A DNA stretch of 64,000 nt from Enoplolaimus lenunculus. Lineage: Eukaryota. Both the position numbers and the translations under genes were made by a program. Shown here piece by piece: positions 15,899 to 63,492 of this stretch. Under the pieces are notes generated by a model, which worked only from the letters and a program-made list of their open reading frames with translations, made no database searches and had not been told where the DNA came from. The stretch covers positions 248,001 to 312,000 of the forward strand of contig JASANG010002365.1 of the NCBI GenBank assembly GCA_030248215.1, in the 5' to 3' direction. Numbering within the stretch: position 1 is the first letter of the stretch; each line of letters opens with the position of its first letter.

Positions 15899-16321
15899 TC
15901 ATGACTTTGAACTGTTGCCAAATTTAGCCGTTAATTCCATTTTAATAAATGTCTTTAAACAAGGATCCGATAATTTAGCGTCAATTTCGCGCATAGCTTC
16001 CTGTAGCCCACGTTGTTGGTACTGTTTCATCAAGCGTTCAGTGTAACCAATCCAAACACAGTTCGCACATCCTGACATGCAACAATTGTCCGGTGGTTCT
16101 TCCACATGACAAGTAACTGTGGTTTCCTTTTCAAAATTAGTCTGTAAGTCCTGTTTATTTACAAACGAATTCGTTGTTTCTTTATCAGTTTCCGAGTGTT
16201 TAGTTCTTGTCATTGCAAAATTCGGACTTTCTGACAGTTTGCTTCGTATTACGGACAGTCTCAAACGCCGAAATACACCCAGGAAGGCTTTCTCTGAACC
16301 GCCCAGCAAGCGAAATTCCAT
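15899..16321 (-). CDS. OXLD1: Oxidoreductase-like domain-containing protein 1 homolog, probably mitochondrial
   Basis: 140-aa ORF with the Oxidored-like motif EEPPDNCCMSGCANCVWIGY and C-terminal DPCLKTFIKMEL; Arg/Ser/Leu-rich N-terminus resembles a mitochondrial presequence. Confidence 0.88.
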   Translation of the reverse strand: MEFRLLGGSEKAFLGVFRRLRLSVIRSKLSESPNFAMTRTKHSETDKETTNSFVNKQDLQTNFEKETTVTCHVEEPPDNCCMSGCANCVWIGYTERLMKQYQQRGLQEAMREIDAKLSDPCLKTFIKMELTAKFGNSSKS

Positions 16322-17570
16322 TAGAATAACGGCAACCCAAAATAGTACCAGAAGTACAAAACATTACGCTCAAACTATAAACTATAAATACCTCACTCTT
16401 AGTTAAATCATTCTGTAAATAAATATACAACACTCGATATTCACACGAATTGCACGTGATCACCACGTTTACTAAGCATTTAGAACGAAGCTCAATTCAT
16501 TACAATACACTTTGCTTTATTGCGTTAAAAAGGACACTAGCTAAGGGATTTTCAGTTAATAATTACACTTGATTAATAACTTAATAATTAATGCACATAA
16601 AGATTACAACACGTCAGTAATCCCTGGATGTAATGAAAAGTTGTGGTTGCTTGTAGTGGTCAATAACCTCATACACACATTGCTTTATAGTAATATTTCG
16701 GTGTAGGTGAACCCCGTATAGCACACCACAAATCTCCGTGGGTTGCTTTTAGGTCTGTAACTTAAGATTAGTAATTTCGAGCGTAAAAACGTTTTTCCTG
16801 CATCACGTATTCAGTTGACACTAAAAGTTACTTACCTGTATACTCTATGCGCGATATGGTTAATATGGGTCATCCACGCAAAGTGCGCACACTAGTGTAA
16901 AAATTGTCCAGGTGTGCGTAAAAGGACCTTTGTCATTTTCAAGAACTCTGTAGGAAGGACGAACTAGTCTCTTTGCAACATCTTTCATCGAGCACACAAT
17001 TGGTAAAAGTGAATCCAGCAACAGTGCACAGCGCACAATCTTTAACAGTGAATACGCATATGCGCAGTTCAAATTTCCCACATGACACTACGTTTTTCAT
17101 AATAAAATGATCAAAGTTTTAGGTTCTACTTTTACCACCGTCCCACTGTTTTGTTCAACTTTAAACCAGTGTAATGTAGATTTCTGTCAGCTTTGTCTTA
17201 GCTAGGATTGGCCCTAGGCTTTAGGCTTCGATTGACACTTATTTTACTGTTAACGATAGGATTAGGCCTTGGAATATGCTTATAATAGAGAGTTACGTCC
17301 TATAAAAGTATCAATTTCTAGCTTGCGAGAAATTTGACGGAAGGTCGAGCTTACCATAAAAGTATTAGTTGCTGGATGCGAAGACGAACTTGTGCGGTTG
17401 TGCACTGGTGTGGTGTATGGGGTCGGTCAAAAACGCAACACCCGGTGGTACATTTTGTTCTAGACGAAACCTCGAATAAAAAGGCCAAAAATATGCTTGC
17501 AAGCATGTAAGACATGCTTGTCCTGGTGCATATGCAATATATGCAATGCATATCGTGTACTATGGTTGCA

Positions 17571-22371: not shown

Positions 22372-25300
22372 ATGGCGTCGTTTATGCTGGCACAGCGACA
22401 TTTAGTCGTTCCAACAACCGCAGGCGACCGTGATTCTGAACTCCGACGCTCCATATCGCGAGAGTTGTCTCAAATTTCATTGGACTCATTGATTAGCAAA
22501 GTTTCTGGTCGACGAGGTGGAGCCAGTGATACTGACCGTAAAAGCTGAATTTGTTTGTTTGCTACATTATTACCTAGTTTTAACCGTTTCTCACATGAAT
22601 ATTTTCGATTTTCTTTTGCGAAATCGAGTTTTAGGCTTTTAAATTTAAATCAGGAAATCTGGCTCGAGAAGCTTTTCATACTAAAACCAGAGTTAGAACC
22701 TACACTTAAAGTCGTTTTCTCTTCTCGCTCTTATTCCCTTTGGTACAACGATCTTACAATGTTAAGACTTTACACAGTTACCTACCTATTTTTTCATCCC
22801 CTTCAAGAAAAAAACACTTTACACATCAACTCCAAAACACATAAATAAAATTTAAAAAATCAAAATTAAGAGATTTGAAAAAAACCAAAAAAAAAATCAA
22901 AAAATTATGTTGTCAGGTTTTACTTTCAAACAAATATGAACGCAGCAAAATGTTAAATTTGACAAATTGTCAAAATCAGCAGGTATATAATATGGCATTT
23001 GTTCCAGAACCGTAAATATCCGGTATCCGGTAGTTTTATACCAGATACCGGAACCGGATACGGATATCGGTTTTTGTCGGATAGGTATGGAACTGGAACC
23101 GAATATCCGGTCGCAATTTGATATATAGTTACAGCTGGTGCAAGATTTACAACGCCAACGTATCAAAATATGTTTTACAGACCGCGGTTTTCTCAGCGAT
23201 TATTGAATAGAAGACAATGAAAGTTTAAAAAGTTAACAGAAACTTACACTGTAAATCCCAGTGAAAAAAACAACTCAGCAAGATAATTAGTTATTTCAGG
23301 TAATTTCTGACTCAATAACAGTAAATATCAATTCACATCTGAGCTGATTTAATTCCGGGTGAATTGATTAATTCACTCACAATGAGTTCAATCAATTCAG
23401 AATTCTGAGTTCTGAAAGACCTAATTCAGCGCTCAGACTTCTGAGTCGATTCAACTCATTCTGAGTTAAAACGAACTCACTTGGATTTACAGTGTAAAGC
23501 TGAAAATATGCGACGTCAAGTTGACATATTTGGCGTGAGCTCCCATTGATACAAATCTACCGAAACATATATACACTTATATTAACAAAATATATTTGTT
23601 CTATGCTGAAAACATGTATAAAATACGCATGTTGGGCGTTCCAGCTTTAATATTTTCTTTTAATATACTTTATCGCGTCTTCGGTAAACACTTTTAGGTT
23701 CATCACTATATCGAAGTGGAAGTCGTGATCGTGGCGGTTCGCAACTATTTGACGGTAGCGAATCATCGGTCGACAGTTTTACTACTAAATCGTTTTGTGG
23801 TAAACTAAAATATATTTACAAACACTACGGTCTCAGTCATTTGCTGCCAGTAATCCTATTGATAATATATTCGCTAATCGGTGGAGCAATGTTTTGGGCA
23901 ATTGAGCATCAAAACGACGTTGAGTTGATTAAAGCTCAAACTGGATTAATTGAAAATTATCGTCGAAGTTTCATTCATGAGTTGATCGATATCGTAGAAG
24001 CGACCGATATGGATACGTCAGCGAAAACGGTTCGCATGGCAACTGCGTTGTTTTTGTTTCAAGAACGCATGAATTGTACACCACCGGACGTACATTGGAC
24101 GTTCGCAACGTCGGTGTTTTATTCTGGAACCCTGTTTACAACAATCGGTATGGAATTGTGCCCTTTATATTGCATATAATTATAGTAACTCACCGAAAAA
24201 CCATGGCTATCTTATGCATTGACATAGTAGCAATTTCTATGCGAAAAAAAGAGCTTTTACTTTCAATTCTCCCAATCTGATTACATTCTATTTTATCTGA
24301 GATAACTTCCAAGATAGCATTTGAACCCCTGATTCTTGGATGGAAGGTGTTCGCGTACACCGTCACCACTTCACACTGCAAAAATGGTGAGTCAAATTGA
24401 CTCTCTCCGAAACAGGCATTTCGGGACTGCACAAACGGATTCAAATTCGACTCCGCCAGAGTCAAACGGGCGACTCAGTGATTCGAACACGACTCTGGTG
24501 GAGTCAAAGTTTGACTCAGTGATTCGAACGTAATTCTGGTGGAGTCAAATTTTGACTCAATTTGTGTAGTCTCGAAAAGCCTATTTCGGAGAGAGTCAAT
24601 TTGACTCACCATTTTTTGCAGTGTAGCTATAGAAGCACTGAAGTCTAAGCCCGAGTGGGCTGTCATGTCTTGTGAAGATTTCGTGTATATATTTGAAGGA
24701 TATAAGTTTGCGTGTTATAACAATGGCAAAACGATATTTTCAACATATGCGATCTTGAGTACTTTTTAGATTCCGACCTACTGGATTTTACATAAATTAT
24801 TGTTACTAACTAAAAATTGCATACTGGTTTTTTGTCCCGGCGGGGTATTTTTTCATATCCGGATATCCGACAATCCTTGACGGTCATATATCTGGATATC
24901 CGTAATTTAATTTTCTATTTCGGATGCCCGAAACTCAATTTTGTGCTTTTTTGGCTTCCGAACCTCAATTTTCGTTTCTTAAGCAATTGTTTTAACTGTT
25001 TGCTCTAAAAGGAATTCCCCACCCACAAAGTGATTATAAGCATAAAACGTACAATTCTAAAATCGTTATTTATTATGCGACTGCCCAAATAGCTCTGGAT
25101 ATTCGGTTTAGAAGATTGCTATTGACTAATAAATACGTGTCTTGGACATTTGAAATTGACTTATTTGGTTTGTGTCCGTCAGATTTAAACCACTGCAACA
25201 GAGATTCTATCGAATGTCACTCTTCCCTCGAACTATATAGTGACCTTACAATTATTTCACAAAAATGTTTCTGACTGGAGTGCCCGCTTTCTTATTAGAC

Positions 25301-28300
25301 CGCAATAGAGTAGGCTAAATTATAGACTATTTTTTGCGTGGGCTTAGGCTTTAAAGCTTTGCTATAGAGTTGTGTTTATTGCGCTGAGGTGACTTAAATG
25401 TAAGAATATGCTTTGGTTGTTACATCGTTAAAAGTAACATTGGTCCGATTCTTCAGGTCTCGATCTAGTCTTTAACGGAACATATGCCGATTTGACACCT
25501 CATAGCCTCCCCTGAGTATTTCAAATAAATTTTAATTTTTTAGACCTGGATATACTTTCACTTTTTGTGATCTTATATATGGACTACCACGGTACAAAAA
25601 ATGTATTTTCAAGTGTTCAGAAATCTATAATTTTGTCATGTATATATTACTGTGTATAAAATGCGACGCGTACAGTTGAACTGCGTCATTGTTTGCGTTT
25701 GGATGACTGGTTTAGCGCAGCTAAGACTATTATAAGCAGTTCAAAACGAAACCTACTCAAAAATCGTTAAGAATTTGGTTCAATATTCTGACTCAGATTT
25801 GAAAACACAATTTCTTTTCGTCAGGTCCAGCTACATTACTGGTGAAACTGCAAATTATTCAAAAAAAATTGCACAATAGCATTTCGGATATCAGGCAGAA
25901 ATCCGGATGTATCCGGATACATATTTATTTATGGATACATATCCGGATATTTTGCATATCCGACATATATATTAAAAGTTCATTTAGCTCACCTTATTTA
26001 TAGAACACTGTAAATTCCAATGAGTTGATTAATCAATTCAGCTAGCTTGTTGGTTATTTCTGAATTAATAAAACAATAACTTACTCAGAGTTTATAGTTA
26101 ATTCTTTTACTCTGAGATGAGTTTAATCTGGGTGAGTTGATTAATTAAGATTAAGACATTGAATTTGAATCAACTCTAAATTCTGAGTTCTGATACTCCT
26201 AACTCAGACTGACAACGATTCAACTCATTTTGAGTTAAAATTAACTCAGTAAAACTTACAGTGAAGTATATGGATTCGTTTACAGGATACGGAAACATTT
26301 CACCTCGAACTCTGGCGGGGAAAATAGCAACGATTATCTACTCAGTGTTTGGTATTCCGTTGGTATTGGCCATACTCGGTGATTTAGGCAAATTAATGTG
26401 CCGCTGGATGAGTGATTTCTGGTCTGCGTTATACGCGTGTTATCTCACGTCATTGAGAGCGATTCGTTCGATTTGGCGACATTTGAGATTAAGCATCAGA
26501 GTAAGTGATTTACTCCATCATTGATATCGCATCAGACACGTATTTGAAACTAATATTCGAAAGCCGGAATCTCGGGTAGAAGGCGTTAACCATCACCACT
26601 CAGATATGGCAACTTATGAAACTCATGCCGGCTCTCGCGACTTTTGCAGAATTTATACCACACACAAAAAAGTATTTCTAAATTTGTTCAGAAAAGTGTT
26701 TTCTGCGGAAAATCTGAAAGGTTTTGCTGATATTTGAGACAATTTTTCTAAAAATAACTGGAAAACGTTTATTTTGAGACTTTATTTCAAAACGTTTTTT
26801 TTTGAAAACATTTCTGTTATAACAGAAATACTTTTCAAGTGCACCTTGCTAATCATATTTCTCAAATGTAAGAAATTTTGTCTTAAATATCAGAAATATT
26901 ATTTTGAGTGCACATGTATTAATTGTTAAACATTGACTTGATTTTTAAAACCTTACTTAGCTTAAGTACCTAACTACTTTATGTCGCCGACTTAGCTAAA
27001 TACTTAAATTTTCGACCAAAACCAAATAAATGCCAAACGTCAGTCATTGTCGCAACAAGAGAGCAGTTCTGGAGCAGACAGGGCTGGTAGCTCTCCCCAA
27101 ACTCGCGACCGCAGCGAGCGAGAAGCCAGACGTATTTTAAAATTTCGGCGGTTTTCGTTTCAACAGGTTAGGGTGGGGGCTCGTTTAGGGGTGGGGCTCC
27201 CCAAATTGGAGGTATGGGTGTGGCTGTTTCAGCCCTGCAAGAATAATAGTTTTGCTATATATTATTAACCCTTTCTCACATGAATATTTTCTATTTCCCC
27301 CGAGACCTACTTTTATGCTAGGATTCGAACTCCAGTGACTGAAGTGGCAGGCGTATACCATCACCACTCAGCTATAGGAGCTTGACGCTCAAGCCCGAGG
27401 GGGCTCTCACGTCGTGTGGTGATTTAGTACTATGTATACGTGTTGCAATTGTTAAACACGGTGCGATATATACTATTTAACGTATATACACTGCGCTGAG
27501 TTGCCTATAGGCAACTCAATGTGAGAAGGGGTTATAGATAGTCAACCGAAAACTTTTCGCTTAAGGAGGCACAATGAGTCTGCATATTCAATTAGACCAA
27601 GGTTATAGTATGCCTGAACGGTTAATTTGTAATATATCAATTTAATCAGCGACTTAAGTATTTAATTAACTAAGTACGCTTTTAAAAAATGACAAAGTGA
27701 TTAAGTAATTGCTTTTAGCTCGTCCTTAAGTTTTTAAGTCGTACATAAGTAGGGTTTCAGAAAACCATTCAATGTACATTGCGTACTAATTAGTACAGTA
27801 GTACACTCTCTATGAGAATTAGGGTTATACCTAGACTGTAACGAAATATTGTTCGCATCAGCATAAAACAAACGTTTCAAATCAGTTCGATTTAAAGCTA
27901 AGATTTGAAATCCAGCTGCTACTTATATGAAATATACTGTAGTGACCTGAAGAAGACGGGTAATAAGATGAGGGGGCCACCATTTAGAGTACCAATCAAT
28001 AGGAGTCCGTATCCCTAATATTACAGTCCGTAAGCGGATTGAGTTTCTAAACCCTACATAGAGTCCATAATGTCAATAAAATAACATTCTCGTAACCGAA
28101 TAACAGGGGGTACCCTCTGGAGAGGCCAAATAAACATCAGTCCCAATCTTTAGTCGGGTCACTATAGTACTCAGCTTACTTATGGACCATGTTTACTTTG
28201 ACGGACGTACCATTTTTCTTCAGGACTGCAATAGAGTAAAGCTTAAGCTTTAGACTATCGTTTTACACATATTTAGGCTTAGGTCTATCTTAGACAACGA

Positions 28301-31300
28301 CTTTTTATGCGTAGGCTTACATTGAGGCTTTAGGCTTAGGAATATGCTTATATTACTGTTTACGCCCGTCAAAGCATTACACTGGCCATTAGCTACAGAA
28401 ACGTAATGCCGAGAGTATGTCGCGATACTACGACGTCGAAGGTATGATCGCAGACACTCTATTGCCGACTGAAGTTGTACAGCAAGCAGGCGGTCGTCAT
28501 CCAGGGGCTTTTCATGAAAAAACGAGCTTACTCGGATCGGATACTGACTTGAGCGGATCGATCGACGACACTCGACAAGATTTCATCCCGGCCGGACCGG
28601 CGATTGTGCTATCAGTCGCGTGGCTGCTATTTGTGTCGGGGCTGTTTTTGATTTGGGAACGAAATTGGTCGTTTTTCGATTCGTTTTATTTCTTTTTTAT
28701 TAGCGCTACAACAATTGGTCTCGGTAAGACTTGTAACAGCATCTGAGTGCCGATGATTATAGCAGAACAAGGCATCCTAGCCTGGGTAGAGCGTGCGAGT
28801 CCGGCACACGCCCGGTAGCCAGAGTGATTTCGGCACAGGACCGGTAGCCAGATCATATTGCTAGGGGGAGGGGGTTGACAAAATCTTCACGAGAGGAATG
28901 CAAGGATTTTCGTTGACTGTTAAAATATTTTCGAGGTGGGGTCAATATTTTTTCCAGGGACGTGAACCCTCGGGCCGCCCCTTGGCTACAGGGTTCGTTT
29001 CGCCATTGAAATAAATAAAAGTCCCGAGTAAATACATTAATTATAACGTATCGTATAAAAACTATGAAAATGGATCTAAAATCCCAGAATTTTTTCATTA
29101 TAACATAGCGTAGGTATTTTTCATTTGGGAGTCCCACTTTCTGTATCATAAACAAATCGCTTTGGGGACCTACGTAGAGTGGAATCCACTGGTGGCACCA
29201 TTTGCATCTTTGTATACTGGACCACCTATCTTACCCTAATGTTCATAAAAAACATGGATCCGGTTATGGATATTCAACACGACTTCCTGTGTATGAACTC
29301 TTTATTAAGCGATATTTTAGTAAGTAAAACAAACCATCCAAATATTAAATTAAATTATTTGCAATGTCATCTGTTACGCATTGTTGAACGTAATATTGAA
29401 CTCAATCTATAATAATTGTCGTTCAAACTAACTTCAACTAAGCAAGTATATAAACAGTAAACTGTTTCTTTAGGAGTTAAAACTTCAATATATACCAGGT
29501 ATCTTTGTTGGACATTTCACAATGTTATATAGAAACGAAGTGCAATGCTATCATTTTAATCTACTTATATATTAAAGTTGGAACACTTCACATACGTATT
29601 TTGGGCAGCGTTCGAGCAGCTTTGGATATCCATATGCAAATTTGCTTCTATACTTCTAAGTGAAAAAATCGTCAGATAGAAAATGTTGTTTACTTTTTTT
29701 ATTTTATTTTATAAGACGAAACCTGTTTGCTTTATGCTTACATTGTAAATGTATGTAAATTGTATATTGTCTTAAGCAGGCATCAATTTGGGACCAGCAT
29801 TTTCATTTGTGGATGGTGGATGCCGGAGTCAATCATTCCTACCGGACCCACACAGACTAAAAAATTTGTATTAGAATTGAATACACAATTGCCAGTCAAG
29901 TTGCAAGGCTTAACTACAGACTTGCTTGAACAAATCCTTTTAAACATACGCCAAAATACAGTGTATTTTAAGAGAGTTGCACATGTGTGAAACACGGATT
30001 ACTAGTATACATTATAGGTGATGTTGTTCCTGAACACCCTGATTATATGATTCTTAACTTCGGTCTGGTGATATTTGGTTTGTGTTTGATATCAATGTGC
30101 ATCAACATTATTCAAATGAAAATGGAACAATTTTTCTACAACATTTTGCTCAAAATACAAGAGGAATACCAGAAACTAATGGACGAAGAGGGTAAGTACA
30201 CTGCAGAAAATGGTGAGTCAAATTGACTCTCTCCGAAGTAGGCTTTTCGTTACTATACAAAACTGAGTTAAAATTCGACTCCACCCGGGTCAAATTCGGT
30301 TCACCGAGTCGAACGTTTGACTCTGCCGGAGGCGAATTTGACTCAGTTTGTGTAGTCCCCAAAAGCCCATTTCGGAAAGATTCAATTTGACACACCATTT
30401 TTTGCAGTGTATTTAATGTTGTTTTACGTTTTATTCAATTTCAAATTTTGTAAATTACGCTGAAATGTTTCATATACTTTTTTAATAAATCGACTATATA
30501 ATATTGCATACGTAGCACTCTCCTGTCGACCTTTACATTCCGATATTTTATCCAAACTAAATTTCAACTTTTAATTTAAAAAACAATGCTTAAGTGTAAA
30601 ATATTTCACTGAGTAATTGTCAATCTAAGGGTCGCGCTATACTTTTGATGACGTTTGGCAGCGTCTTTGACAGGTACTGGTGCCGCCCGTCACCGTACAG
30701 TACCATACTACAACACACATGTACTGGCGCATGACACATCATATGAAATTATGAACAAAAAATTTTTTGACGTCAGCTGCCGTCTGGCATTGAAAAGTAT
30801 ATGGCCACTCTATTTCCGCCGCAGGAACAAGCGTGCAATAGTGCGCTTTATCTTACAAATCATTTCTACCTATATTTTAATGATTTAAGTGCTGTTCCTG
30901 TACTACTAGCTTTAATTTCATGTACACTGCAAAAAATGGTGAGTTAAATTGACTCTCTCTCTCCGAAATAGGCTTTTCCGGACTACACAAATGGAGTCAA
31001 ATTCGACTCCGCCAGAGTCAAATTCGACTCACAGCGATTCATTGAGTCGAATTTGACTCTGGCTGAGTCCAATTTTGACTCAGTTTGTGTAGTCCACAAA
31101 AGCATGTTTCGGAGAGAGTCAATTTGACTCATCATTTTTTGCAGTGTTACTTGCATTATATATACTTAATTTCATGTAAGCTGCAAAATACTTAATGTCA
31201 TGTAGCATAATTATAACTTAAAGGTTGGGTTTCTGAAACAATCTTTAAGTAGGACTTAGCATTGAAGTACGTGCTAAGTAATTACTCAACCATTTTGCCA

Positions 31301-34300
31301 TTTTAAAAGCGTATATATACTTTTAAGTTAAGTAAATACTTAAGTCGCTGACTAAATTTGATAAATTACAAATTAACCATTCAGACATACTACCCCTGGT
31401 GTAATTGAAATTTCCTGTAATTTGCACGCTAGTTAATTTCATATTAACTTGCACAATATATACTTAATTGCATATAATTTGCACAATTAATACATAATAA
31501 ATTTACGCAAACTTTCATAATACGCCATCTATATATTAAACCTGGAATGCCCCAAACAGGTATTTTGGGCAACTTTCCAGCATTACTTTGTTTACAATAT
31601 TTTCTTAACACAGAAACGGTGATTGTTTATGTGAAACTAAAAATTGGCACGCAGATAGTTCTTCGCTAATTATTTGCGCATTACGCAAAACCGGCTGACT
31701 AGTTTCATCTAATTTGCATAAACAATCCTCAACAGGAATTGTAACTGAAAAAGACAAAGACAAAATACTGAATAAAGCGTGGAAAAAACAACCATGGTGG
31801 GCACGAAATATGATGCCTGCGGCGCTCGGCGAGCGAAAAACGAAAGAAATCGACCGCGCAATGACAAACACAATAATTCATGGACTTGGAACCGCAGTTA
31901 AATCGACACAAACGCCCGGCACAGCGTTGAGCTCGAGAACGTTTGAAAATACCGCAATTCAGTGTGATTTTTTGCCGGCTCGATTTTCAAAGGCCACCGA
32001 TGTTGACGAAAGACTATTTTCGTATTACGGTAAACGTTCATTGTGTTAGACGTTTGAGCCCATGTAACGATCAGGGGCAGAACGTGTTTCTGTGGGACTG
32101 CAATATAGTAAAGCTTAAGCTTTAGACTAATTTTTTGCTTTAGCAGAGGCTTAGGTGTCAACTCGTTCTTACGCTTCCGCTTAGGCTGTAGGCTTTAGGC
32201 ATAGGCTTGCCAATATGCTTATAATACTATTCCACCCCTTCAAGGTTCCGATATACTTTTACTGAGTCGCGTGCCTCTGCATTAAGAAATCGTTCCGGCC
32301 GCTTTGGCCCTTGTAAAGATCAGGGGCGGAACGGTTTTCTGTGGGACGAGAATACAGTAAGCTTAAGAACTAGACTAATTTTTTGCTTGGATTGGACTTT
32401 TTTTAGGCTTTAGGCTTAGCAATATGCTCATTCTAACGCTTACGCTTAGGTTTAGGCTTAGGAATATACTCATTTTTACGTTTAGGCTTATGCTTAGGCA
32501 TAACCCCTTCTCACATTGAGTTGCCTATAGGCAACTTAGCGCAGTGTATATACGTTAAATAATATATATCGCACCGTGTTTAACAATTGCAAGACGTATA
32601 CATAGTACTAAATCACCACAAGACGTGAGAGCCCCCTTGGGCTCGAGCGTCAAGCTCCTATAGCTGAGTGGTGATGGTATACGCCTCGCACTCCAGTCAC
32701 CGGAGTTCGAATCCTAGCATAAAAGTATGTCTCAGGGGAAATTGAAAATATTCATGTGAGAAAGGGTTAAGCATAGAAATACGCTTGTAATACTGTTCCG
32801 CCCCTGTTCTTTACACTGGCCACGGCTTTAAACAGATCGCTATGGTCAGAGCAGTACGAGACGTAAAAAAACTCTTAAGTGAATATTTCACTTTAGCTTT
32901 GCTTTAGGTCAGAAAACTGTGGAACTGATTTCTATTTGCCAAATTTAATAATTTGTCCTAGCAATTTTAGCAACTTTGATCTATACCAGCTTTGGCTTTA
33001 CATGATAGATATAAATCACTAAGAGTTTTGCATTTACGTATCGAAATACTTCGCGTCTTAGCGTCAATTTAGGTTTCTGACTCAAATTCAGAACCTGTTT
33101 TAAACTCAAGGATCGAGTTTCATTAGGTTTTCGTATTAACCGCCGGCAAGTTTTGCTATCACTGCATTGCTAATATATTGCATTACTGTGCCTTTGCCAG
33201 ATTTTCCTGAAACCAATTCGCAGATCTCGTCGCTAACTGGAAGCAACGAACCTCACCCATCCGATCCAGTATGGTTAGTGTCTGACGAAACACAAACCTC
33301 TGATGTGCCTGATATTGTGTTGGTACGTACGGCTAAACTGCTACTAAAGCATTTTTCAGCATATCGATGGAATACCCTATGAAACTCTATGAGAGACAAG
33401 AAAAAGACACTTTTATACACAGCAAAAAATGGTGAGCAAACAGTTTTGCTTTATACTTAAACTTACCACTTATATATCTTCAGATATTCCTAAAGTTGAA
33501 ATAAGTTAACCCACAAGTAAACACAGATTTCAACGACTCGTTTCGCTTCACAACCCAGTAAAAAGTTTAACCTGAAATAACGATGTGCGCTCTCAGTTCA
33601 AACTTCCACCGGAACATACGTACTTTAGGAACCGCTTGAAGAAGCGATTGAAATGTTCAATATGCCGCCGGAAATATTCGTCGCCGGAGACGACAACGAA
33701 GTAACGCTACTGCATACATCCGCTTCGCCTAATAGCGCACGTATGCATCCCAGTAACGATGCTAGCATCAGTCGATCAGTGACTCGACAACATAGTACAG
33801 ATACACGTGACACTTTAACACAAACAACGCGATCGTTAACAAATTTAGCAATTACTGATTTATTGCGAAATTTAGCACCCCAACTCGATGAACTCACTGC
33901 GAGGCCAACAAACGCCGATTTAAAATCGAAACCATCAATAGCTTATGTCAATAATGGCCATGGCGAAAATACTGACGTCATCAACTCAAAATACACACCC
34001 CTGGTTGATTTAATGAACTGGGTATCGTCTCCAAAAGCATCCGTTTCGTTCGCTGAACTGCCGGATTACAGCGAGATTGCCGATTACGTACGAACGCTTA
34101 CAGGCAACACCGGCAACTTGAGCGACTCGTCTGCTCAATCTTCAATTTCGTTGCTCAATTTAAGTTTCAGAAGCAGTCATCCTGGCTCAGATGTTTCGTT
34201 TTCGAACAGTTCGTGCTATTCTACAGATGACGACGTTATTAACGTGGAACCAAATAAGTCAAAAACACCCGAATCCGGCATTGATTCAGTGACATTTTTG

Positions 34301-36562
34301 CCTGCTGTGCACGCGTTACTCAGTGCAAACAGTCAAATTGTGCCAATCACCGCGAGCAAACGCCAAGATAAAGTACACAAAATATTGTGCGGCGAACAAT
34401 CGCATAAGTTATCGTCAGATTTAAACAAATCACTACAAACTAGCTGGTCTATGTTTGGTCTGAGCAACATTGACCAGCTTACAGCAAACAGTCATTCCGA
34501 AACTTCGATGGAACCTTTTCCAGCGTTGCTTTCATCGACTGCCACGCTTCCACAGTCCACAATCGCGAGCATTATGCTTGACTCAAACCAGCGTGGCATT
34601 GTCAAAGGAGCTAAGCAAATTGTGATCAAACAACCGTCGGTTGAACTGGAAAACTGTAACGAGCTAACATCGCTACATGACAATGAATCAACAACAACAA
34701 TACAAACAGCATCAAATCAAGATCGTTCACTTCAATTCGCTGAAATCCATATTCACCGAGAAAAGCCAATCAACCATCGACAAACTCAAAACAACGACAA
34801 CAAATCGACGCAAAAAGCAAACTGTGTAGCAACAGTAACCCAACCGCTATTACACCGCGAACGAATCATAGATTGTGGTTGGGAAAAATCTGCTCAAACA
34901 ACGCCAACAGTTGAATCGAAAGAAAACATCCGTCCAACGGCAAAACATCAATATTGTCAATCTCAACCGAACTGTATCGACGCTCAGAGTCAAACAGAAC
35001 TAAGGCTTCTACGAGAATACGCCAAACAATTAGTCATATCCGACGTCATGCCTCAACCAGAGATGCAACATCAACAAACGCTGACAACGTTCTATGGTGT
35101 CGACAAATCGATCCAAAGCTCTGATCCCGAGATCACTGGAGCAGATATCGGAACTGAAACGCAAACAGAGTTCGCACTCGCAAAACCGTTGATTACTGCG
35201 TTACTGCGCGGACTGCACGCGCGTGGCGAAATCATTCCGCTGGGTGAAGACGGTTGTCCACTGAGAACAATTCCTAATCTGGTTGATTGGTCTGCAATAT
35301 TGAATCGAATTCAAACGCTATCATTTGGCGAACCTGATCAAGATGCCAGTTCAAGCCAACGAGCAATTGCAGCAGCACGATACAACGATCCTGTAGCATC
35401 CAATACGTCACAGACTGAGCTTAAAACGTTTGAAGTAATCGACGTTAAATGCCAAACGATGGAATCGCTATTCGACAGCAACAGACAATCAATTGAAAAT
35501 TCAGTTCAAACGTCAATTTCTTTACTGGAATTAGCTTGCAAGCGGCCGCCACCCGACAACGATACCGGATGCCAAGTTGTCGAATCCGAACTCGAACGTC
35601 CTGAAGGTCCACTGATGACTGAACTACAAACAATGGCAGCTCAGACTGGACTGTCACTGGACGACATTGTCTCCAGTCTACCTCAAACACAAGACGATAC
35701 AACATGCAACGCGTCAACTCAACTACATCCTGAGCAACTATACGCCAGCATGCAGTTGCCGTCAATTTTCGATTCAAGTGAACTCGAAGTTCACACGCTC
35801 GGGCCTGGATTCACCAGTTTATATGGCGATTTAATATCTCAAACCGTTGAACAGTCCTGCCAAACGCTCCCGCGGCTTGTTGCATTGCAAAGTTTTGAAG
35901 ACTTCGAAGGATTTGACGAACCAGACGAACGTATCGTTCACATCGGCACGGATCAGTTTCAAATCCTTGGTATCGATGGTCCGTCGTTGGATCCGGCCCG
36001 CTACGCAATCGCAGGACCAACTGGCAAACGTCTTCGAACACGACAAATTGGAACGCAAAGTGACCACAAAAAATACTACTCTGCTGCAGTGCAAACGCTT
36101 CCGTTGCCAAATCCAAGTTTCTTTTCACAACGCACCAATCAAGGCCGACCGAGTTTGTACAGCCCACCTGGTAGCGCTTTGGCGAACATGTTACGGCTAT
36201 TCGGGCAACAACAACCAGCCTCACCGCAAGCGGCTGATTTTCCACGAAATAAAAAAGTCCAAACGGTCGAAGATTGGCCGTACATATCGCCAGCGCCTGA
36301 AGGATACATTGACGTCGCAGTTCAAACTCAAAATTCGTATTTGAGAGTTGCACGACGCCTTGGTGATATTCAAACAGCTAAATCTGGACTAAACCTAAAC
36401 GTTATGATGGCACCTAATATTAAGACTCCTTCTTCAAGTACGGTCGATTCAAGAACGCCGATAGCGGCGTATGCTGAAAACATTTCGCTGTATCCGGCCG
36501 CTGAACATCGCAACCGAATGCAAAAAGCGTTCAAAGCACTGGCTAATTTTGGCCGTTCGTAG
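22372..36562 (+). CDS. Two-pore-domain potassium channel (K2P / nematode TWK family) with a very long C-terminal tail, ~1559 aa
   Basis: Exons 22372-22537, 23698-24147, 26286-26500, 28399-28723, 30018-30191, 31736-32029, 33201-33322, 33629-36562 total 4680 nt with compatible phases. M1 LLIIYSLIGGAMFWAIE; pore 1 WTFATSVFYSGTLFTTIG|YGNISPRT; M2 ATIIYSVFGIPLVLAILGDLG; M3; pore 2 WSFFDSFYFFFISATTIGLG|DVVP; M4 MILNFGLVIFGLCLISMCINII. The channel core is secure; linkage of the last two exons is inferred from splice phases. Confidence 0.88.
23247..23494. mobile_element. CMC/EnSpm-like MITE (CACTGTAAA family)
   Basis: CACTGTAAATCC..GGATTTACAGTG, TA flanks. Confidence 0.75.
24374..24623. mobile_element. 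CMC/EnSpm-like palindromic MITE (CACTGCAAAA family, GAGTC/GACTC repeats)
   Basis: Long TIR CACTGCAAAAATGGTGAGTCAAATTGACTCTCTCCGAAA; copies at 30199-30409 and 30925-31146. Confidence 0.85.
26006..26263. mobile_element. CMC/EnSpm-like MITE (CACTGTAAA family)
   Basis: CACTGTAA..TTACAGTG with 2-bp AA flanks. Confidence 0.75.
27064..27237. mobile_element. GC-rich hAT-like MITE; second copy at ~36882-37066
   Basis: Both copies share CCCCAAACTCGC..GAAGCCAGACG..GGTTAGGGTGGG..TTTAGGGGTGGG; CAG..CCCTG ends. Confidence 0.6.
27269..27531 (-). mobile_element. piggyBac-like MITE with internal Pol III boxes (inverted copy)
   Basis: TTAA|CCCTTTCTCACAT..ATGTGAGAAGGGG|TTAT; near-identical reverse complement of 32504-32766. 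Confidence 0.85.
27937..28167. mobile_element. TA-flanked MITE (CTGTAGTGACC ends)
   Basis: TA|CTGTAGTGACC..GGTCACTATAG|TA; related ends near 18754 and 39920. Confidence 0.6.
28184..28387. mobile_element. TTAGGC-bearing MITE abutting the K2P exon-4 acceptor
   Basis: GGACCATGTTTACTTTGACGG..CCGTCAAAGCATTACACTGGCC with internal TTAGGC variants. Confidence 0.7.
29560..30005 (+). mobile_element. Non-autonomous Helitron
   Basis: A|TCTACTTATATTAAA 5' end; subterminal palindrome and CTAG|T 3' end; 5' part homologous to the 31528 and 44672 copies. Confidence 0.65.
30199..30409. mobile_element. CMC/EnSpm-like palindromic MITE (CACTGCAAAA family)
   Basis: TA|CACTGCAG..TGCAGTG|TA, inserted immediately after a GTAAGTA splice donor. 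Confidence 0.85.
30628..30810. mobile_element. PIF/Harbinger-like MITE (GCGCTATACTTT family)
   Basis: GGGTCGCGCTATACTTTT..AAAAGTATATGGCCACTC; related ends at 20683, 42327 and 59674-59792. Confidence 0.5.
30925..31146. mobile_element. CMC/EnSpm-like palindromic MITE (CACTGCAAAA family)
   Basis: Near-perfect palindrome CACTGCAAAAAATG..CATTTTTTGCAGTG. Confidence 0.85.
31528..31702 (+). mobile_element. Short non-autonomous Helitron
   Basis: A|TCTATATATTAAA .. hairpin TTTGCG-CATTA-CGCAAA .. CTAG|T; second copy at ~44672-44855. Confidence 0.8.
32306..32821. mobile_element. TTAGGC-bearing MITE with a nested piggyBac-like MITE (32504-32766)
   Basis: GGCCCTTGTAAAGATCAGGGGCGGAAC..GTTCCGCCCCTGTTCTTTACACTGGCC; degenerate TSD GCCGCTTT/ACGGCTTT; a truncated sibling lies at ~32056-32245. 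Confidence 0.8.
32504..32766 (+). mobile_element. piggyBac-like MITE with internal Pol III A/B boxes
   Basis: ATAA|CCCCTTCTCACAT..ATGTGAGAAAGGG|TTAA; A box TAGCTGAGTGG, B box GAGTTCGAATCC. Confidence 0.85.
33629..36562 (+). CDS. 2.9-kb terminal exon of the K2P gene: S/T/Q-rich, probably disordered region with many xQT motifs
   Basis: 969-aa stop-free ORF with an in-frame acceptor TACTTTAG|GAA at 33629. Confidence 0.8.
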   Translation, partial: EPLEEAIEMFNMPPEIFVAGDDNEVTLLHTSASPNSARMHPSNDASISRSVTRQHSTDTRDTLTQTTRSLTNLAITDLLRNLAPQLDELTARPTNADLKSKPSIAYVNNGHGENTDVINSKYTPLVDLMNWVSSPKASVSFAELPDYSEIADYVRTLTGNTGNLSDSSAQSSISLLNLSFRSSHPGSDVSFSNSSCYSTDDDVINVEPNKSKTPESGIDSVTFLPAVHALLSANSQIVPITASKRQDKVHKILCGEQSHKLSSDLNKSLQTSWSMFGLSNIDQLTANSHSETSMEPFPALLSSTATLPQSTIASIMLDSNQRGIVKGAKQIVIKQPSVELENCNELTSLHDNESTTTIQTASNQDRSLQFAEIHIHREKPINHRQTQNNDNKSTQKANCVATVTQPLLHRERIIDCGWEKSAQTTPTVESKENIRPTAKHQYCQSQPNCIDAQSQTELRLLREYAKQLVISDVMPQPEMQHQQTLTTFYGVDKSIQSSDPEITGADIGTETQTEFALAKPLITALLRGLHARGEIIPLGEDGCPLRTIPNLVDWSAILNRIQTLSFGEPDQDASSSQRAIAAARYNDPVASNTSQTELKTFEVIDVKCQTMESLFDSNRQSIENSVQTSISLLELACKRPPPDNDTGCQVVESELERPEGPLMTELQTMAAQTGLSLDDIVSSLPQTQDDTTCNASTQLHPEQLYASMQLPSIFDSSELEVHTLGPGFTSLYGDLISQTVEQSCQTLPRLVALQSFEDFEGFDEPDERIVHIGTDQFQILGIDGPSLDPARYAIAGPTGKRLRTRQIGTQSDHKKYYSAAVQTLPLPNPSFFSQRTNQGRPSLYSPPGSALANMLRLFGQQQPASPQAADFPRNKKVQTVEDWPYISPAPEGYIDVAVQTQNSYLRVARRLGDIQTAKSGLNLNVMMAPNIKTPSSSTVDSRTPIAAYAENISLYPAAEHRNRMQKAFKALANFGRS

Positions 36563-37062: not shown

Positions 37063-37496
37063 TCCTCGCGACTTACAGTTTTTCAATTTTAAACAACTCC
37101 AGATATACCACTCTATTCATAGTTCACAGGTTTGCGGTAAATCTTCAACTGTTGTTCTGTTGGAGATGGAATCGGTTTAACTTTATTTACCGCAGGCAAT
37201 CAAAACATGACATCGGCGTTAAATATTAATGTTTTGTAATCCATTAAAATGTGGCCAATGTAAAGAACAGGGGCGGAACTCCTCGCGACTTACAGTTTTT
37301 CAATTTTAAACAACTCCAGATATACGACTCTATTCATAGTTCACAGGTTTGCGGTAAATCTTCAACTGTTGTTCTGTTGGAGATGGAATCGGTTTAACTT
37401 TATTTACCGCAGGCAATCAAAACATGACATCGGCGTTAAATATTAATGTTTTGTAATCCATTAAAATGTGGCCAATGTAAAGAACAGGGGCGGAAC
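37063..37496. repeat. Near-perfect 217-bp tandem duplication
   Basis: 37063-37279 repeated at 37280-37496; one visible substitution (TATACCAC vs TATACGAC). Confidence 0.95.

Positions 37497-42803: not shown

Positions 42804-63492
<20,689 letters not shown>

What the first reader, a model, noticed from the sequence alone, without database searches (positions are those of the whole stretch)
31736..36562. K2P channel with a ~1100-aa tail carrying more than 20 QT motifs: candidate multivalent LC8 (dynein light chain) hub
Seen: the channel's M4 exon splices phase-correctly through 31736-32029 and 33201-33322 into the 2.9-kb exon, leaving ~1140 aa after M4. I count about 23 QT dipeptides in this tail. 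Many sit in classic context (VKSTQT, SDETQT, EKSAQT, DAQSQT, GTETQT, DVKCQT, ENSVQT, SAAVQT, NKKVQT, DVAVQT), plus variants (DKSIQS, QIGTQS, NTAIQC, NASTQL). Known: LC8/DYNLL dimers bind (K/R)xTQT-like motifs in disordered regions, and multivalent arrays (e.g. ASCIZ, Nup159) zip two chains into a duplex; K2P channels are obligate dimers. Inference: the two tails of the channel dimer could be laddered by many LC8 dimers, coupling leak conductance or localisation to LC8 level. I know of no description of this architecture for a K2P channel.
Basis: partly seen in the sequence, partly recalled or inferred. Interest (0 to 1): 0.85.

Follow-up and report, generated by a model that had tools for sequence, protein, structure and literature searches.

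The report
LC8 docking arrays on worm channels
This nematode potassium leak-channel gene, and its relatives across nematodes including the lab worm C. elegans, carry long tails with many short motifs that likely dock multiple copies of the hub protein LC8 and would zip the two tails of the channel together; we found no report of this for this channel family, and binding is untested.

Summary
Observation confirmed. Eight GT-AG exons give a stop-free 1559-aa K2P channel with a 1141-aa tail holding 23 QT (shuffles: mean 6.4, max 16 of 10,000). No RNA was available, but homology ties the 2.9-kb exon to the channel: it carries a terminal block found in the same polypeptide as the pore in 47 homologs (E 1.4e-7). 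The gene is a basal member of the nematode TWK-31 clade (97/95). The array is family-wide: 38 of 47 full-tail orthologs are QT-enriched, three QT sites are kept in 37-43 of 44, and the sister clades carry arrays too (C. elegans TWK-11 group protein: 32 QT, often 12 residues apart). Flanks fit published LC8 preferences. Limits: only 15 of the window's 23 QT pass qualitative rules (7 well), position +2 is not enriched, spacing is irregular, disorder is borderline, and binding is untested. Best reading: a multivalent LC8 client that zips the two tails of the dimer. Closest known: Kir4.1 (one site), ASCIZ and KANK1 (arrays, not channels). Seven literature searches found no K2P-LC8 report. This scan noted LC8-type arrays in other proteins before, none on a K2P channel.

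The parts
22372..22537 (+). Exon 1 (putative ATG; N-terminal cytoplasmic part); least certain exon
   Evidence: ATG and GT donor, phase 1 fits exon 2; no homology test hit it
23698..24147 (+). Exon 2: M1, cap, pore helix 1, first half of filter 1 (TTIG)
   Evidence: TWK-31 profile E 1.2e-29; 93 HMMER hits
26286..26500 (+). Exon 3: end of filter 1 (YG), M2
   Evidence: Pfam Ion_trans_2 E 3.1e-10; TASK2/TREK hits
28399..28723 (+). Exon 4: M2-M3 loop, M3, pore helix 2, filter 2 (TTIGLG)
   Evidence: Pfam Ion_trans_2 E 2.6e-06; profile E 1.5e-21
30018..30191 (+). Exon 5: M4 and start of the post-M4 helix
   Evidence: profile E 5.3e-26; phases fit
31736..32029 (+). Exon 6: conserved post-M4 helices and the first QT site
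   Evidence: profile E 8.4e-08; aligned to the orthologs' first motif
31894..31917 (+). First QT site (Q502), at the position of the site kept in 39 of 44 orthologs right after the post-M4 helices
   Evidence: has K at -3, T at -1, P at +2 but V at -4, so it fails the qualitative rule
33201..33322 (+). Exon 7 (122 nt), bridges phase 1 to phase 0, holds one TQT site (Q573 at 33293)
   Evidence: no homology support, inferred from phase and splice signals
33629..36562 (+). Exon 8 (977 aa to stop): bulk of the tail, 21 QT
   Evidence: open frame; single-copy depth and one DNA contig over 32796-36761; terminal block hit
34703..36376 (+). Dense part of the array: 19 of the 23 QT (residues 941-1498)
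   Evidence: positions
36308..36415 (+). Conserved terminal block: QT site (Q1481 at 36323) followed by a predicted short helix
   Evidence: block profile E 1.4e-07 in six-frame window, next hit 0.069; QT in 43 of 44 orthologs; helix 978-992 in the C. elegans model

Best explanation
The gene encodes a nematode TWK-31-clade two-pore potassium channel whose long tail is likely a multivalent docking platform for the dimeric hub protein LC8 (DLC-1), which would zip the two tails of the channel dimer into a duplex. Shown by sequence: channel core, tail, QT excess, LC8-like flanks, conservation. Inferred steps: (1) the two subunits of the K2P dimer hold two identical tails in parallel, which supplies the avidity weak LC8 sites need; (2) LC8 dimers load on about 7-15 sites, giving a loose, variably occupied duplex here and a tighter rod in the sister clades with 12-residue spacing; (3) the last site pairs the conserved short helix behind it, creating a dimeric docking module held away from the membrane, so the main job would be to anchor, cluster or traffic the channel; (4) the first site, directly behind the post-M4 helices, could also bias gating.
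For: QT 23 vs 6.4 shuffled; in-frame only. Given a QT, window flanks are biased as LC8 rules predict: -1 T/V/I 11/23 vs 0.19 (p 0.0015), -4 D/S/E/N/T 16/23 vs 0.37 (p 0.0018), Pro in -5..-1 2/23 vs 0.28 (p 0.037); rule-passing sites 22 vs 5.5, strong 7 vs 0.5 (rules from passages of PMC6607443). Orthologs: 38 of 47 proteins with the terminal block have QT p<0.05, median 7 QT; pooled flanks of 18 TWK-31, 7 TWK-11 and 10 third-group proteins show -4 D, -1 T/V/I, +2 D/E/P enriched and Pro depleted (rows related, so p-values are inflated). QT at C. elegans 491, 614, 975 kept in 39, 37, 43 of 44 while only 20 of 650 tail columns are that conserved. AlphaFold model of the C. elegans ortholog: folded core, tail pLDDT<50 except short helices, two of them starting just behind QT614 and QT975, the site-next-to-helix layout described for LC8 clients (PMC9282019 passage on Swallow). 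Gaps of exactly 12 aa: 27 of 153 (TWK-11 group) and 27 of 76 (third group); KANK1 motifs lie at 685, 697, 710. Precedent for LC8 on a K+ channel: Kir4.1. Control: 0 QT in the 704-aa S/T-rich ORF at 52763-54877.
Against: Window motifs are individually weak: +2 D/E/P 4/23 (background 0.19), +2 hydrophobic 8/23, -3 K/R 4/23 (p 0.13), -4 large hydrophobic not depleted (6/23); only 4 TQT; 8 of 23 QT fail the rules. Many anchor-bearing peptides do not bind LC8 (PMC6607443 passage). Spacing in the window is irregular and the TWK-31 clade has no 12-aa period (2 of 85 gaps). FoldIndex calls only 42% of the window tail's 51-aa windows unfolded (66% and 80% for the C. elegans proteins). 9 of 47 orthologs are not QT-enriched at p<0.05. 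Apart from the first and last sites, the window's motifs do not align with those of orthologs. Steps 3 and 4 have no direct evidence.
Confidence: 0.65

Rival explanations
1. LC8 binds only the two or three conserved sites (after the post-M4 helices and before the terminal helix) and acts as a simple clamp; the other QT are weak, drifting extras with little function.
For: Only three sites are kept in 37 or more of 44 orthologs, others in 1-27; TWK-42-like and n2P24 relatives carry only 2-3 good-looking sites; window extras are poor at +2.
Against: A 3.6-fold QT excess with biased flanks in a tail that cannot otherwise be aligned needs continuing selection; KANK1 shows that weak sites bind well together; 12-aa period in sister clades.
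Confidence: 0.17
2. The motifs hitch the channel to the dynein motor (or myosin V) through LC8 as cargo adaptor, for retrograde transport, rather than forming a motor-independent duplex.
For: Suggested for Kir4.1 surface expression in the discussion of PMC11999606.
Against: Both grooves of an LC8 dimer are filled by two client chains (PMC5963919 Introduction), so a motor-bound LC8 is not free (inference); 20-30 sites are not needed for a cargo link.
Confidence: 0.07
3. The QT-rich tail serves another ligand: S/TQ kinase sites (ATM/ATR type), FHA phospho-sites, or an unknown strand-binding protein.
For: TQ is slightly raised (11 vs 6.4, p 0.047); LC8 specificity was not tested directly.
Against: SQ 8 vs 8.2 expected and only 7 TQ outside TQT; the fixed element is QT with V/I/T before it and D at -4, which is the LC8 pattern (PMC3078936 abstract).
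Confidence: 0.07
4. Gene-model error: the channel ends at 32049 by read-through and exon 8 is a separate gene or a rarely used exon.
For: No RNA joins the exons; exon 6 can read through to a stop at 32047-32049; exon 7 has no homology support; the exon-8 ORF alone finds no homolog at database scale.
Against: Exon 8 holds the TWK-31 terminal block, which sits in one chain with the pore in 47 proteins, including annotated C. elegans proteins and Logan proteins of 1138 aa on contigs of at most 3473 nt, too short to hold large introns; an in-frame stop lies immediately before 33629; no AATAAA within 370 nt behind 32049 (also none behind 36562, so weak). A short side isoform cannot be excluded.
Confidence: 0.04

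Closest known systems
C. elegans TWK-31 (NP_001022884.1 / NP_001359517.1; name inferred from the clade with CBN-/CBR-TWK-31 and Pristionchus twk-31)
   Same: Same clade (97/95); same layout: core, post-M4 helices, first QT, long low-confidence tail, terminal QT-plus-helix block.
   Different: Window tail is longer (1141 vs ~714 aa) with 23 vs 9 QT; internal sequence not alignable; middle QT-plus-helix block of Chromadorea not found. twk-31 appears in 2 papers of the library, without LC8 in the passages or listing seen.
C. elegans TWK-11 group and a third nematode clade (C. angaria CAI5448552.1, Trichinella, Romanomermis)
   Same: Sister K2P clades with QT arrays: 13-32 QT in 7 TWK-11-group proteins, 4-14 in 10 third-group proteins.
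   Different: 12-residue period in their arrays; no TWK-31 terminal block; not described as LC8 clients in the searches run.
Kir4.1-LC8 (PMC11999606; parts 1-2 of 4 read)
   Same: A K+ channel whose disordered end binds LC8 through a TQT motif, pairing neighbouring subunits and altering activity and stability.
   Different: One site, N-terminal, tetrameric Kir channel; here a dimeric K2P with many C-terminal sites; binding shown there, untested here.
ASCIZ/ATMIN (PMC5963919; abstract and Introduction read)
   Same: Long C-terminal tail with many LC8 motifs (11 in human), irregularly spaced, graded occupancy tuning activity.
   Different: Nuclear transcription factor, monomer until bound; here a membrane channel already dimeric, with up to 23-36 QT.
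KANK1 linker L2 (bioRxiv 10.1101/2025.07.16.665182; parts 1-2 of 7 read)
   Same: Many individually weak motifs, cooperative loading (14:2), rod reaching from the cortex; spacing 12-13 like the TWK-11 and third clades.
   Different: Adaptor, not channel; the window's own spacing is too irregular for a continuous rod.

Membership tests
K2P (two-pore-domain K+ channel) | Two pore domains with four transmembrane helices in one chain | tested here: met
   Ion_trans_2 hits on exons 3, 4 (and partial on 5); TASK2/TREK sequence hits; ortholog model matches TRAAK/TREK/TASK/TWIK folds, E 1e-7
K2P (two-pore-domain K+ channel) | Intact K+ filters (TxGYG / TxGLG) | tested here: met
   TTIGYG across exons 2/3 and TTIGLGD across exons 4/5
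K2P (two-pore-domain K+ channel) | Dimeric assembly and K+ leak current | not testable with these tools
   follows from family knowledge only
Nematode TWK-31 clade | Core groups with named TWK-31 proteins | tested here: met
   97/95 in the careful tree of 23 rows; SH-aLRT 98 and 97 in quick trees of 64 and 26 rows
Nematode TWK-31 clade | Terminal QT-plus-helix block | tested here: met
   E 1.4e-07 against six frames of the window
Multivalent LC8 client | Several anchor motifs (mid-size residue, Q, T) above chance | tested here: met
Multivalent LC8 client | Flanks fit LC8 preferences (-4 polar, -3 large, no Pro, +2 D/E/P) | tested here: inconclusive
   window: -1, -4, Pro met, -3 and +2 not significant; pooled orthologs met at -4, -1, +2, Pro. 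LC8Pred itself was not available
Multivalent LC8 client | Motifs in a disordered region | tested here: inconclusive
   C. elegans ortholog tail pLDDT<50 with a 44-row alignment; window tail borderline by FoldIndex
Multivalent LC8 client | Motifs conserved in orthologs | tested here: met
   QT kept in 39, 37, 43 of 44 at three sites; enrichment in 38 of 47
Multivalent LC8 client | Measured binding of several LC8 dimers, lost on anchor mutation | not testable with these tools
   needs pull-down, ITC or SEC-MALS
Rod-forming LC8 ladder (KANK1/Nup159 type) | Close, regular spacing of motifs | tested here: not met
   window gaps 5-205 aa, median about 32; met in the TWK-11 and third clades (12-aa gaps)

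The most novel reading that the evidence does not exclude
An ancient, nematode-wide branch of K2P channels (TWK-31, TWK-11 and a third clade, present from dorylaimids to C. elegans) uses LC8 ladders as a built-in structural subunit: up to 30 or more sites per tail, more than the 11 of human ASCIZ, turn the paired tails into an LC8-loaded tether of adjustable length and stiffness that anchors the channel, while the site next to the post-M4 helices makes leak conductance depend on free LC8. This would be the first multivalent LC8 client among ion channels.
Probability: 0.35. Interest if true: 0.85.

Novelty: new variant of a known kind. Interest (0 to 1): 0.7.

Why it matters
The long tails of these worm channels have no assigned function, and auxiliary subunits of K2P channels are few. 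The prediction names a partner, sites and a mechanism, and can be tested at once in C. elegans (twk-31, twk-11, dlc-1) by genome editing, pull-down and recording. It would extend multivalent LC8 scaffolds from nuclear pore, transcription and adhesion proteins to ion channels, and the array was found only in nematode rows of our set (six insect, tick, mollusc-type or unnamed outgroup K2Ps have short tails and 0 QT), including many parasites.

Tried and rejected
No whole genome held, so the species' own LC8 gene and a proteome-wide QT background could not be examined. No RNA holder listed; the three DNA runs of one study only confirm the genomic sequence; a finer look at variants in exons 7-8 was not obtained, and the six exonic differences listed (2 silent, 4 missense) are too few to use. 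Exon-8 protein alone: no hit among 7991 scored candidates, no usable Atlas hit, one Pfam hit below cut-off; word search with exon 2 found nothing, full HMMER did. Complex prediction of four LC8 chains (a metagenome stand-in, L003, Pfam Dynein_light E 2e-44) with two copies of window 36230-36391: no verdict, scores 0.14 and 0.27 against a mark of 0.34, controls not folded, peptides and disordered chains untested for that tool; not used as evidence. Single-sequence AlphaFold of exon 8: 929 of 977 residues under pLDDT 50, uninformative without an alignment. DNA-repeat origin of the QT excess rejected. S/TQ kinase cluster rejected. IQ calmodulin motif for the terminal block rejected by eye: no basic residue five places after the I/V-Q (consensus recalled). 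Middle QT-plus-helix block of orthologs not found in the window protein. Exon-7 skipping would need a weak alternative acceptor (e.g. 33642), not excluded. The looser motif pattern (44 of 47 orthologs) was written after seeing the sequences and is not relied on; the ELM-type pattern was recalled (1 match, p 0.04). In one search one control row (P0067) was counted uncut by error; it affects only the 'other K2P' group. Supplements of PMC9282019 (a DLC-1 motif scan of the C. elegans proteome; 2 files) hold no 'twk' or 'potassium', but list RNA-binding proteins only.

Full report
Gene model. The window holds a K2P channel gene on the + strand. Eight exons (22372-22537, 23698-24147, 26286-26500, 28399-28723, 30018-30191, 31736-32029, 33201-33322, 33629-36562) have GT-AG ends and matching phases and give 1559 aa without an internal stop. 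Exons 3-5 match Pfam Ion_trans_2 and exon 3 matches TASK2 and TREK chains; both filters are canonical. No RNA holder was listed. DNA contigs show exon 8 at the same depth as exon 2 (about 31-39 against 40 in run X1) and one contig over 32796-36761; that run may be the window's source and is not independent.

Is the QT excess real? The tail has 23 QT against 6.4 in 10,000 shuffles (max 16) and 6.8 in local 40-aa shuffles (max 15); it is the top dipeptide (z 6.6). The codon pair occurs 21 times in frame in exon 8 and 6 and 5 times in the other + frames, and there is no DNA tandem array, so the bias is in the protein. The other large S/T-rich ORF of the window (704 aa) has 0 QT. 19 of the 23 lie in residues 941-1498.

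Does exon 8 belong to the channel? Alone it finds no homolog. A full HMMER search with exon 2 gave 93 proteins, whose long members are nematode channels; a profile of 12 of them gave 145 hits, 120 listed, with named TWK-31 proteins of C. brenneri, C. briggsae and Pristionchus. Of 102 rows with two filters and a tail of 60 aa or more (one is the window model), 47 homologs carry a block near the C-terminus made of a QT and a short conserved stretch. A profile of that block, built without the window, hits exon 8 at E 1.4e-7 in a six-frame search of the whole window, next hit 0.069; the full profile hits six of the eight exons in order (not exons 1 and 7). So the end of exon 8 is the end of a TWK-31-type channel. 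A short read-through isoform ending at 32049 is not excluded.

Orthology. In a careful tree of 23 core sequences the model joins the TWK-31 clade at 97/95 and branches before Romanomermis/Trichuris and the Chromadorea; quick trees of 64 and 26 rows agree (eight rows were skipped by a pattern miss, three long-branch rows left out). The C. elegans names TWK-31 and TWK-11 are inferred from these clades; the source labels say only 'TWiK family'. The host is thus probably an early-branching nematode (inference from one gene).

The array is a family trait. 38 of the 47 full-tail orthologs have QT p<0.05 against their own shuffles (range 2-12, median 7 in a median 676-aa tail); the window has twice the density (2.0 against 1.1 per 100 aa). 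In a 44-row alignment only 20 of 650 tail columns are identical in 40 or more rows, yet QT is kept at C. elegans 491 (39 rows), 614 (37) and 975 (43); other sites in 1-27 rows. The TWK-11 clade has 13-32 QT in the seven proteins pooled (up to 36), a third clade 4-14, with gaps of exactly 12 residues in 27 of 153 and 27 of 76 cases, against 2 of 85 in TWK-31. TWK-42-like and n2P24 proteins have 2-3 sites; six outgroup K2Ps (two insects, a tick, two molluscs, one unnamed) have short tails and none.

Do the motifs look like LC8 sites? Published preferences (PMC6607443, 12 passages; consensus in the abstract of PMC3078936): buried mid-size residues at -1 and +1, polar -4, large -3, no proline before the anchor, D/E/P at +2. 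Pooled homolog sites fit at -4, -1, +2 and proline in all three clades, and at -3 K/R in TWK-31 only (rows are related, so the p-values overstate). The window's own 23 fit at -1 (11/23), -4 (16/23) and proline (2/23) but not at +2 (4/23) or -3 (4/23). A qualitative filter passes 22 sites (15 QT, 7 variants) against 5.5 shuffled, 7 strong against 0.5. So the realistic count is 7-15 usable sites, mostly weak alone. KANK1 shows that such sites can bind tightly together: peptides did not bind, the 126-aa segment bound seven dimers. Against this, many anchor-bearing peptides do not bind.

Structure. AlphaFold on the C. elegans ortholog with 44 rows folds the core (matches TRAAK, TREK, TASK, TWIK) and three post-M4 helices ending at 486, and leaves 489-1136 below pLDDT 50 except short helices, two of which start just behind QT614 and QT975. 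The first QT (491) follows the post-M4 helices directly. FoldIndex calls the window's tail only borderline disordered (42% of windows).

Mechanism. An LC8 dimer binds two parallel chains, one in each groove, and favours self-association of adjacent helices (PMC5963919 Introduction; PMC9282019 passage). A K2P dimer presents exactly two tails in parallel (family knowledge). The likely outcome is an LC8-beaded duplex, loose in TWK-31 and rod-like in the 12-period clades, that ends in a paired helix block acting as a docking module for anchoring or traffic; the first site could also constrain the post-M4 helices and so gating. Motifs, conservation and layout are shown; binding and all functional steps are inferred.

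Comparison with what is known. LC8 binds Kir4.1 through one N-terminal TQT and changes its activity; that paper names VDAC and Kv7.4 as other LC8-regulated channels without predicted motifs (parts 1-2 of 4). Multivalent clients are ASCIZ (11 sites), Nup159 (5), Chica and Bassoon (3) and KANK1. Searches for LC8/TQT/multivalent/potassium channel, K2P/dynein light chain/elegans/TWK (none of 20 listed of 33 held the dynein term), twk-31 (2 papers, one reporting developmental alternative splicing), DYNLL1/KCNK/LC8/K2P, dlc-1/twk (a name coincidence), LC8/ion channel/multivalent/nematode and DLC-1 proximity labelling (20 of 46 listed) showed no K2P-LC8 report; these were read as listings unless stated. 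The library lacks most subscription journals, bioRxiv supplements were closed, and interaction databases were not available. [quoted passage not shown] This scan's notes hold no K2P-LC8 finding and five LC8-type arrays in other proteins, unchecked.

Verdict. It is a new variant of a known kind (multivalent LC8 client on an ion channel), with binding still to be shown. Interest 0.7.

Noticed in passing
P0077, P0080, P0088, P0164, P0169, P0171 (C-termini): The third clade ends in its own conserved block (W-x-P-x-D-G-x-H-A-E-x-Q-x-P-V pattern) right after the 12-period QT array, from Trichinella to Caenorhabditis: a second candidate docking module.
   Followed up: no
P0197, P0207, P0208: Annotated C. 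elegans TWK-11-group isoforms differ in tail length and QT number (29, 32, 28); the two TWK-31 isoforms differ only behind the terminal block.
   Followed up: partly
P0005, P0008, P0009, P0025, P0043 tails: TWK-31 tails also repeat motif variants with E or M in place of Q (D-R-S-M-E-T type), which may be further weak LC8 sites or a second ligand's sites.
   Followed up: no
window 4095-11624 +: Beta-catenin/armadillo-like gene in several exons; Arm Pfam hit on the exon at 7541-7936.
   Followed up: partly
window 15899-16363 -: Small gene with Oxidored-like domain (PF09791, E 1.4e-11).
   Followed up: partly
window 52763-61760 -: Tomosyn/Lgl-like WD40 gene (label recalled from the exon translations) with one unusually large 704-aa low-complexity exon without Pfam match; used as negative control.
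   Followed up: no
window 27260-27535 and 32500-32775: 276-nt element in two inverted copies, 95% alike, in introns of the channel gene; summed contig depth about 4-6e5 against about 33 on exons, so a very high-copy repeat with a tRNA-like stretch (by eye; ARAGORN did not call it). Neighbouring repeats are rich in TTAGGC.
   Followed up: no
window 37063-37496 and 43428-44069: Exact 217-nt tandem duplication and a 45-nt tandem array open in several frames.
   Followed up: no
window 2856-2931 -: tRNA-Val(GAC) call by ARAGORN; may be a repeat-derived look-alike.
   Followed up: no
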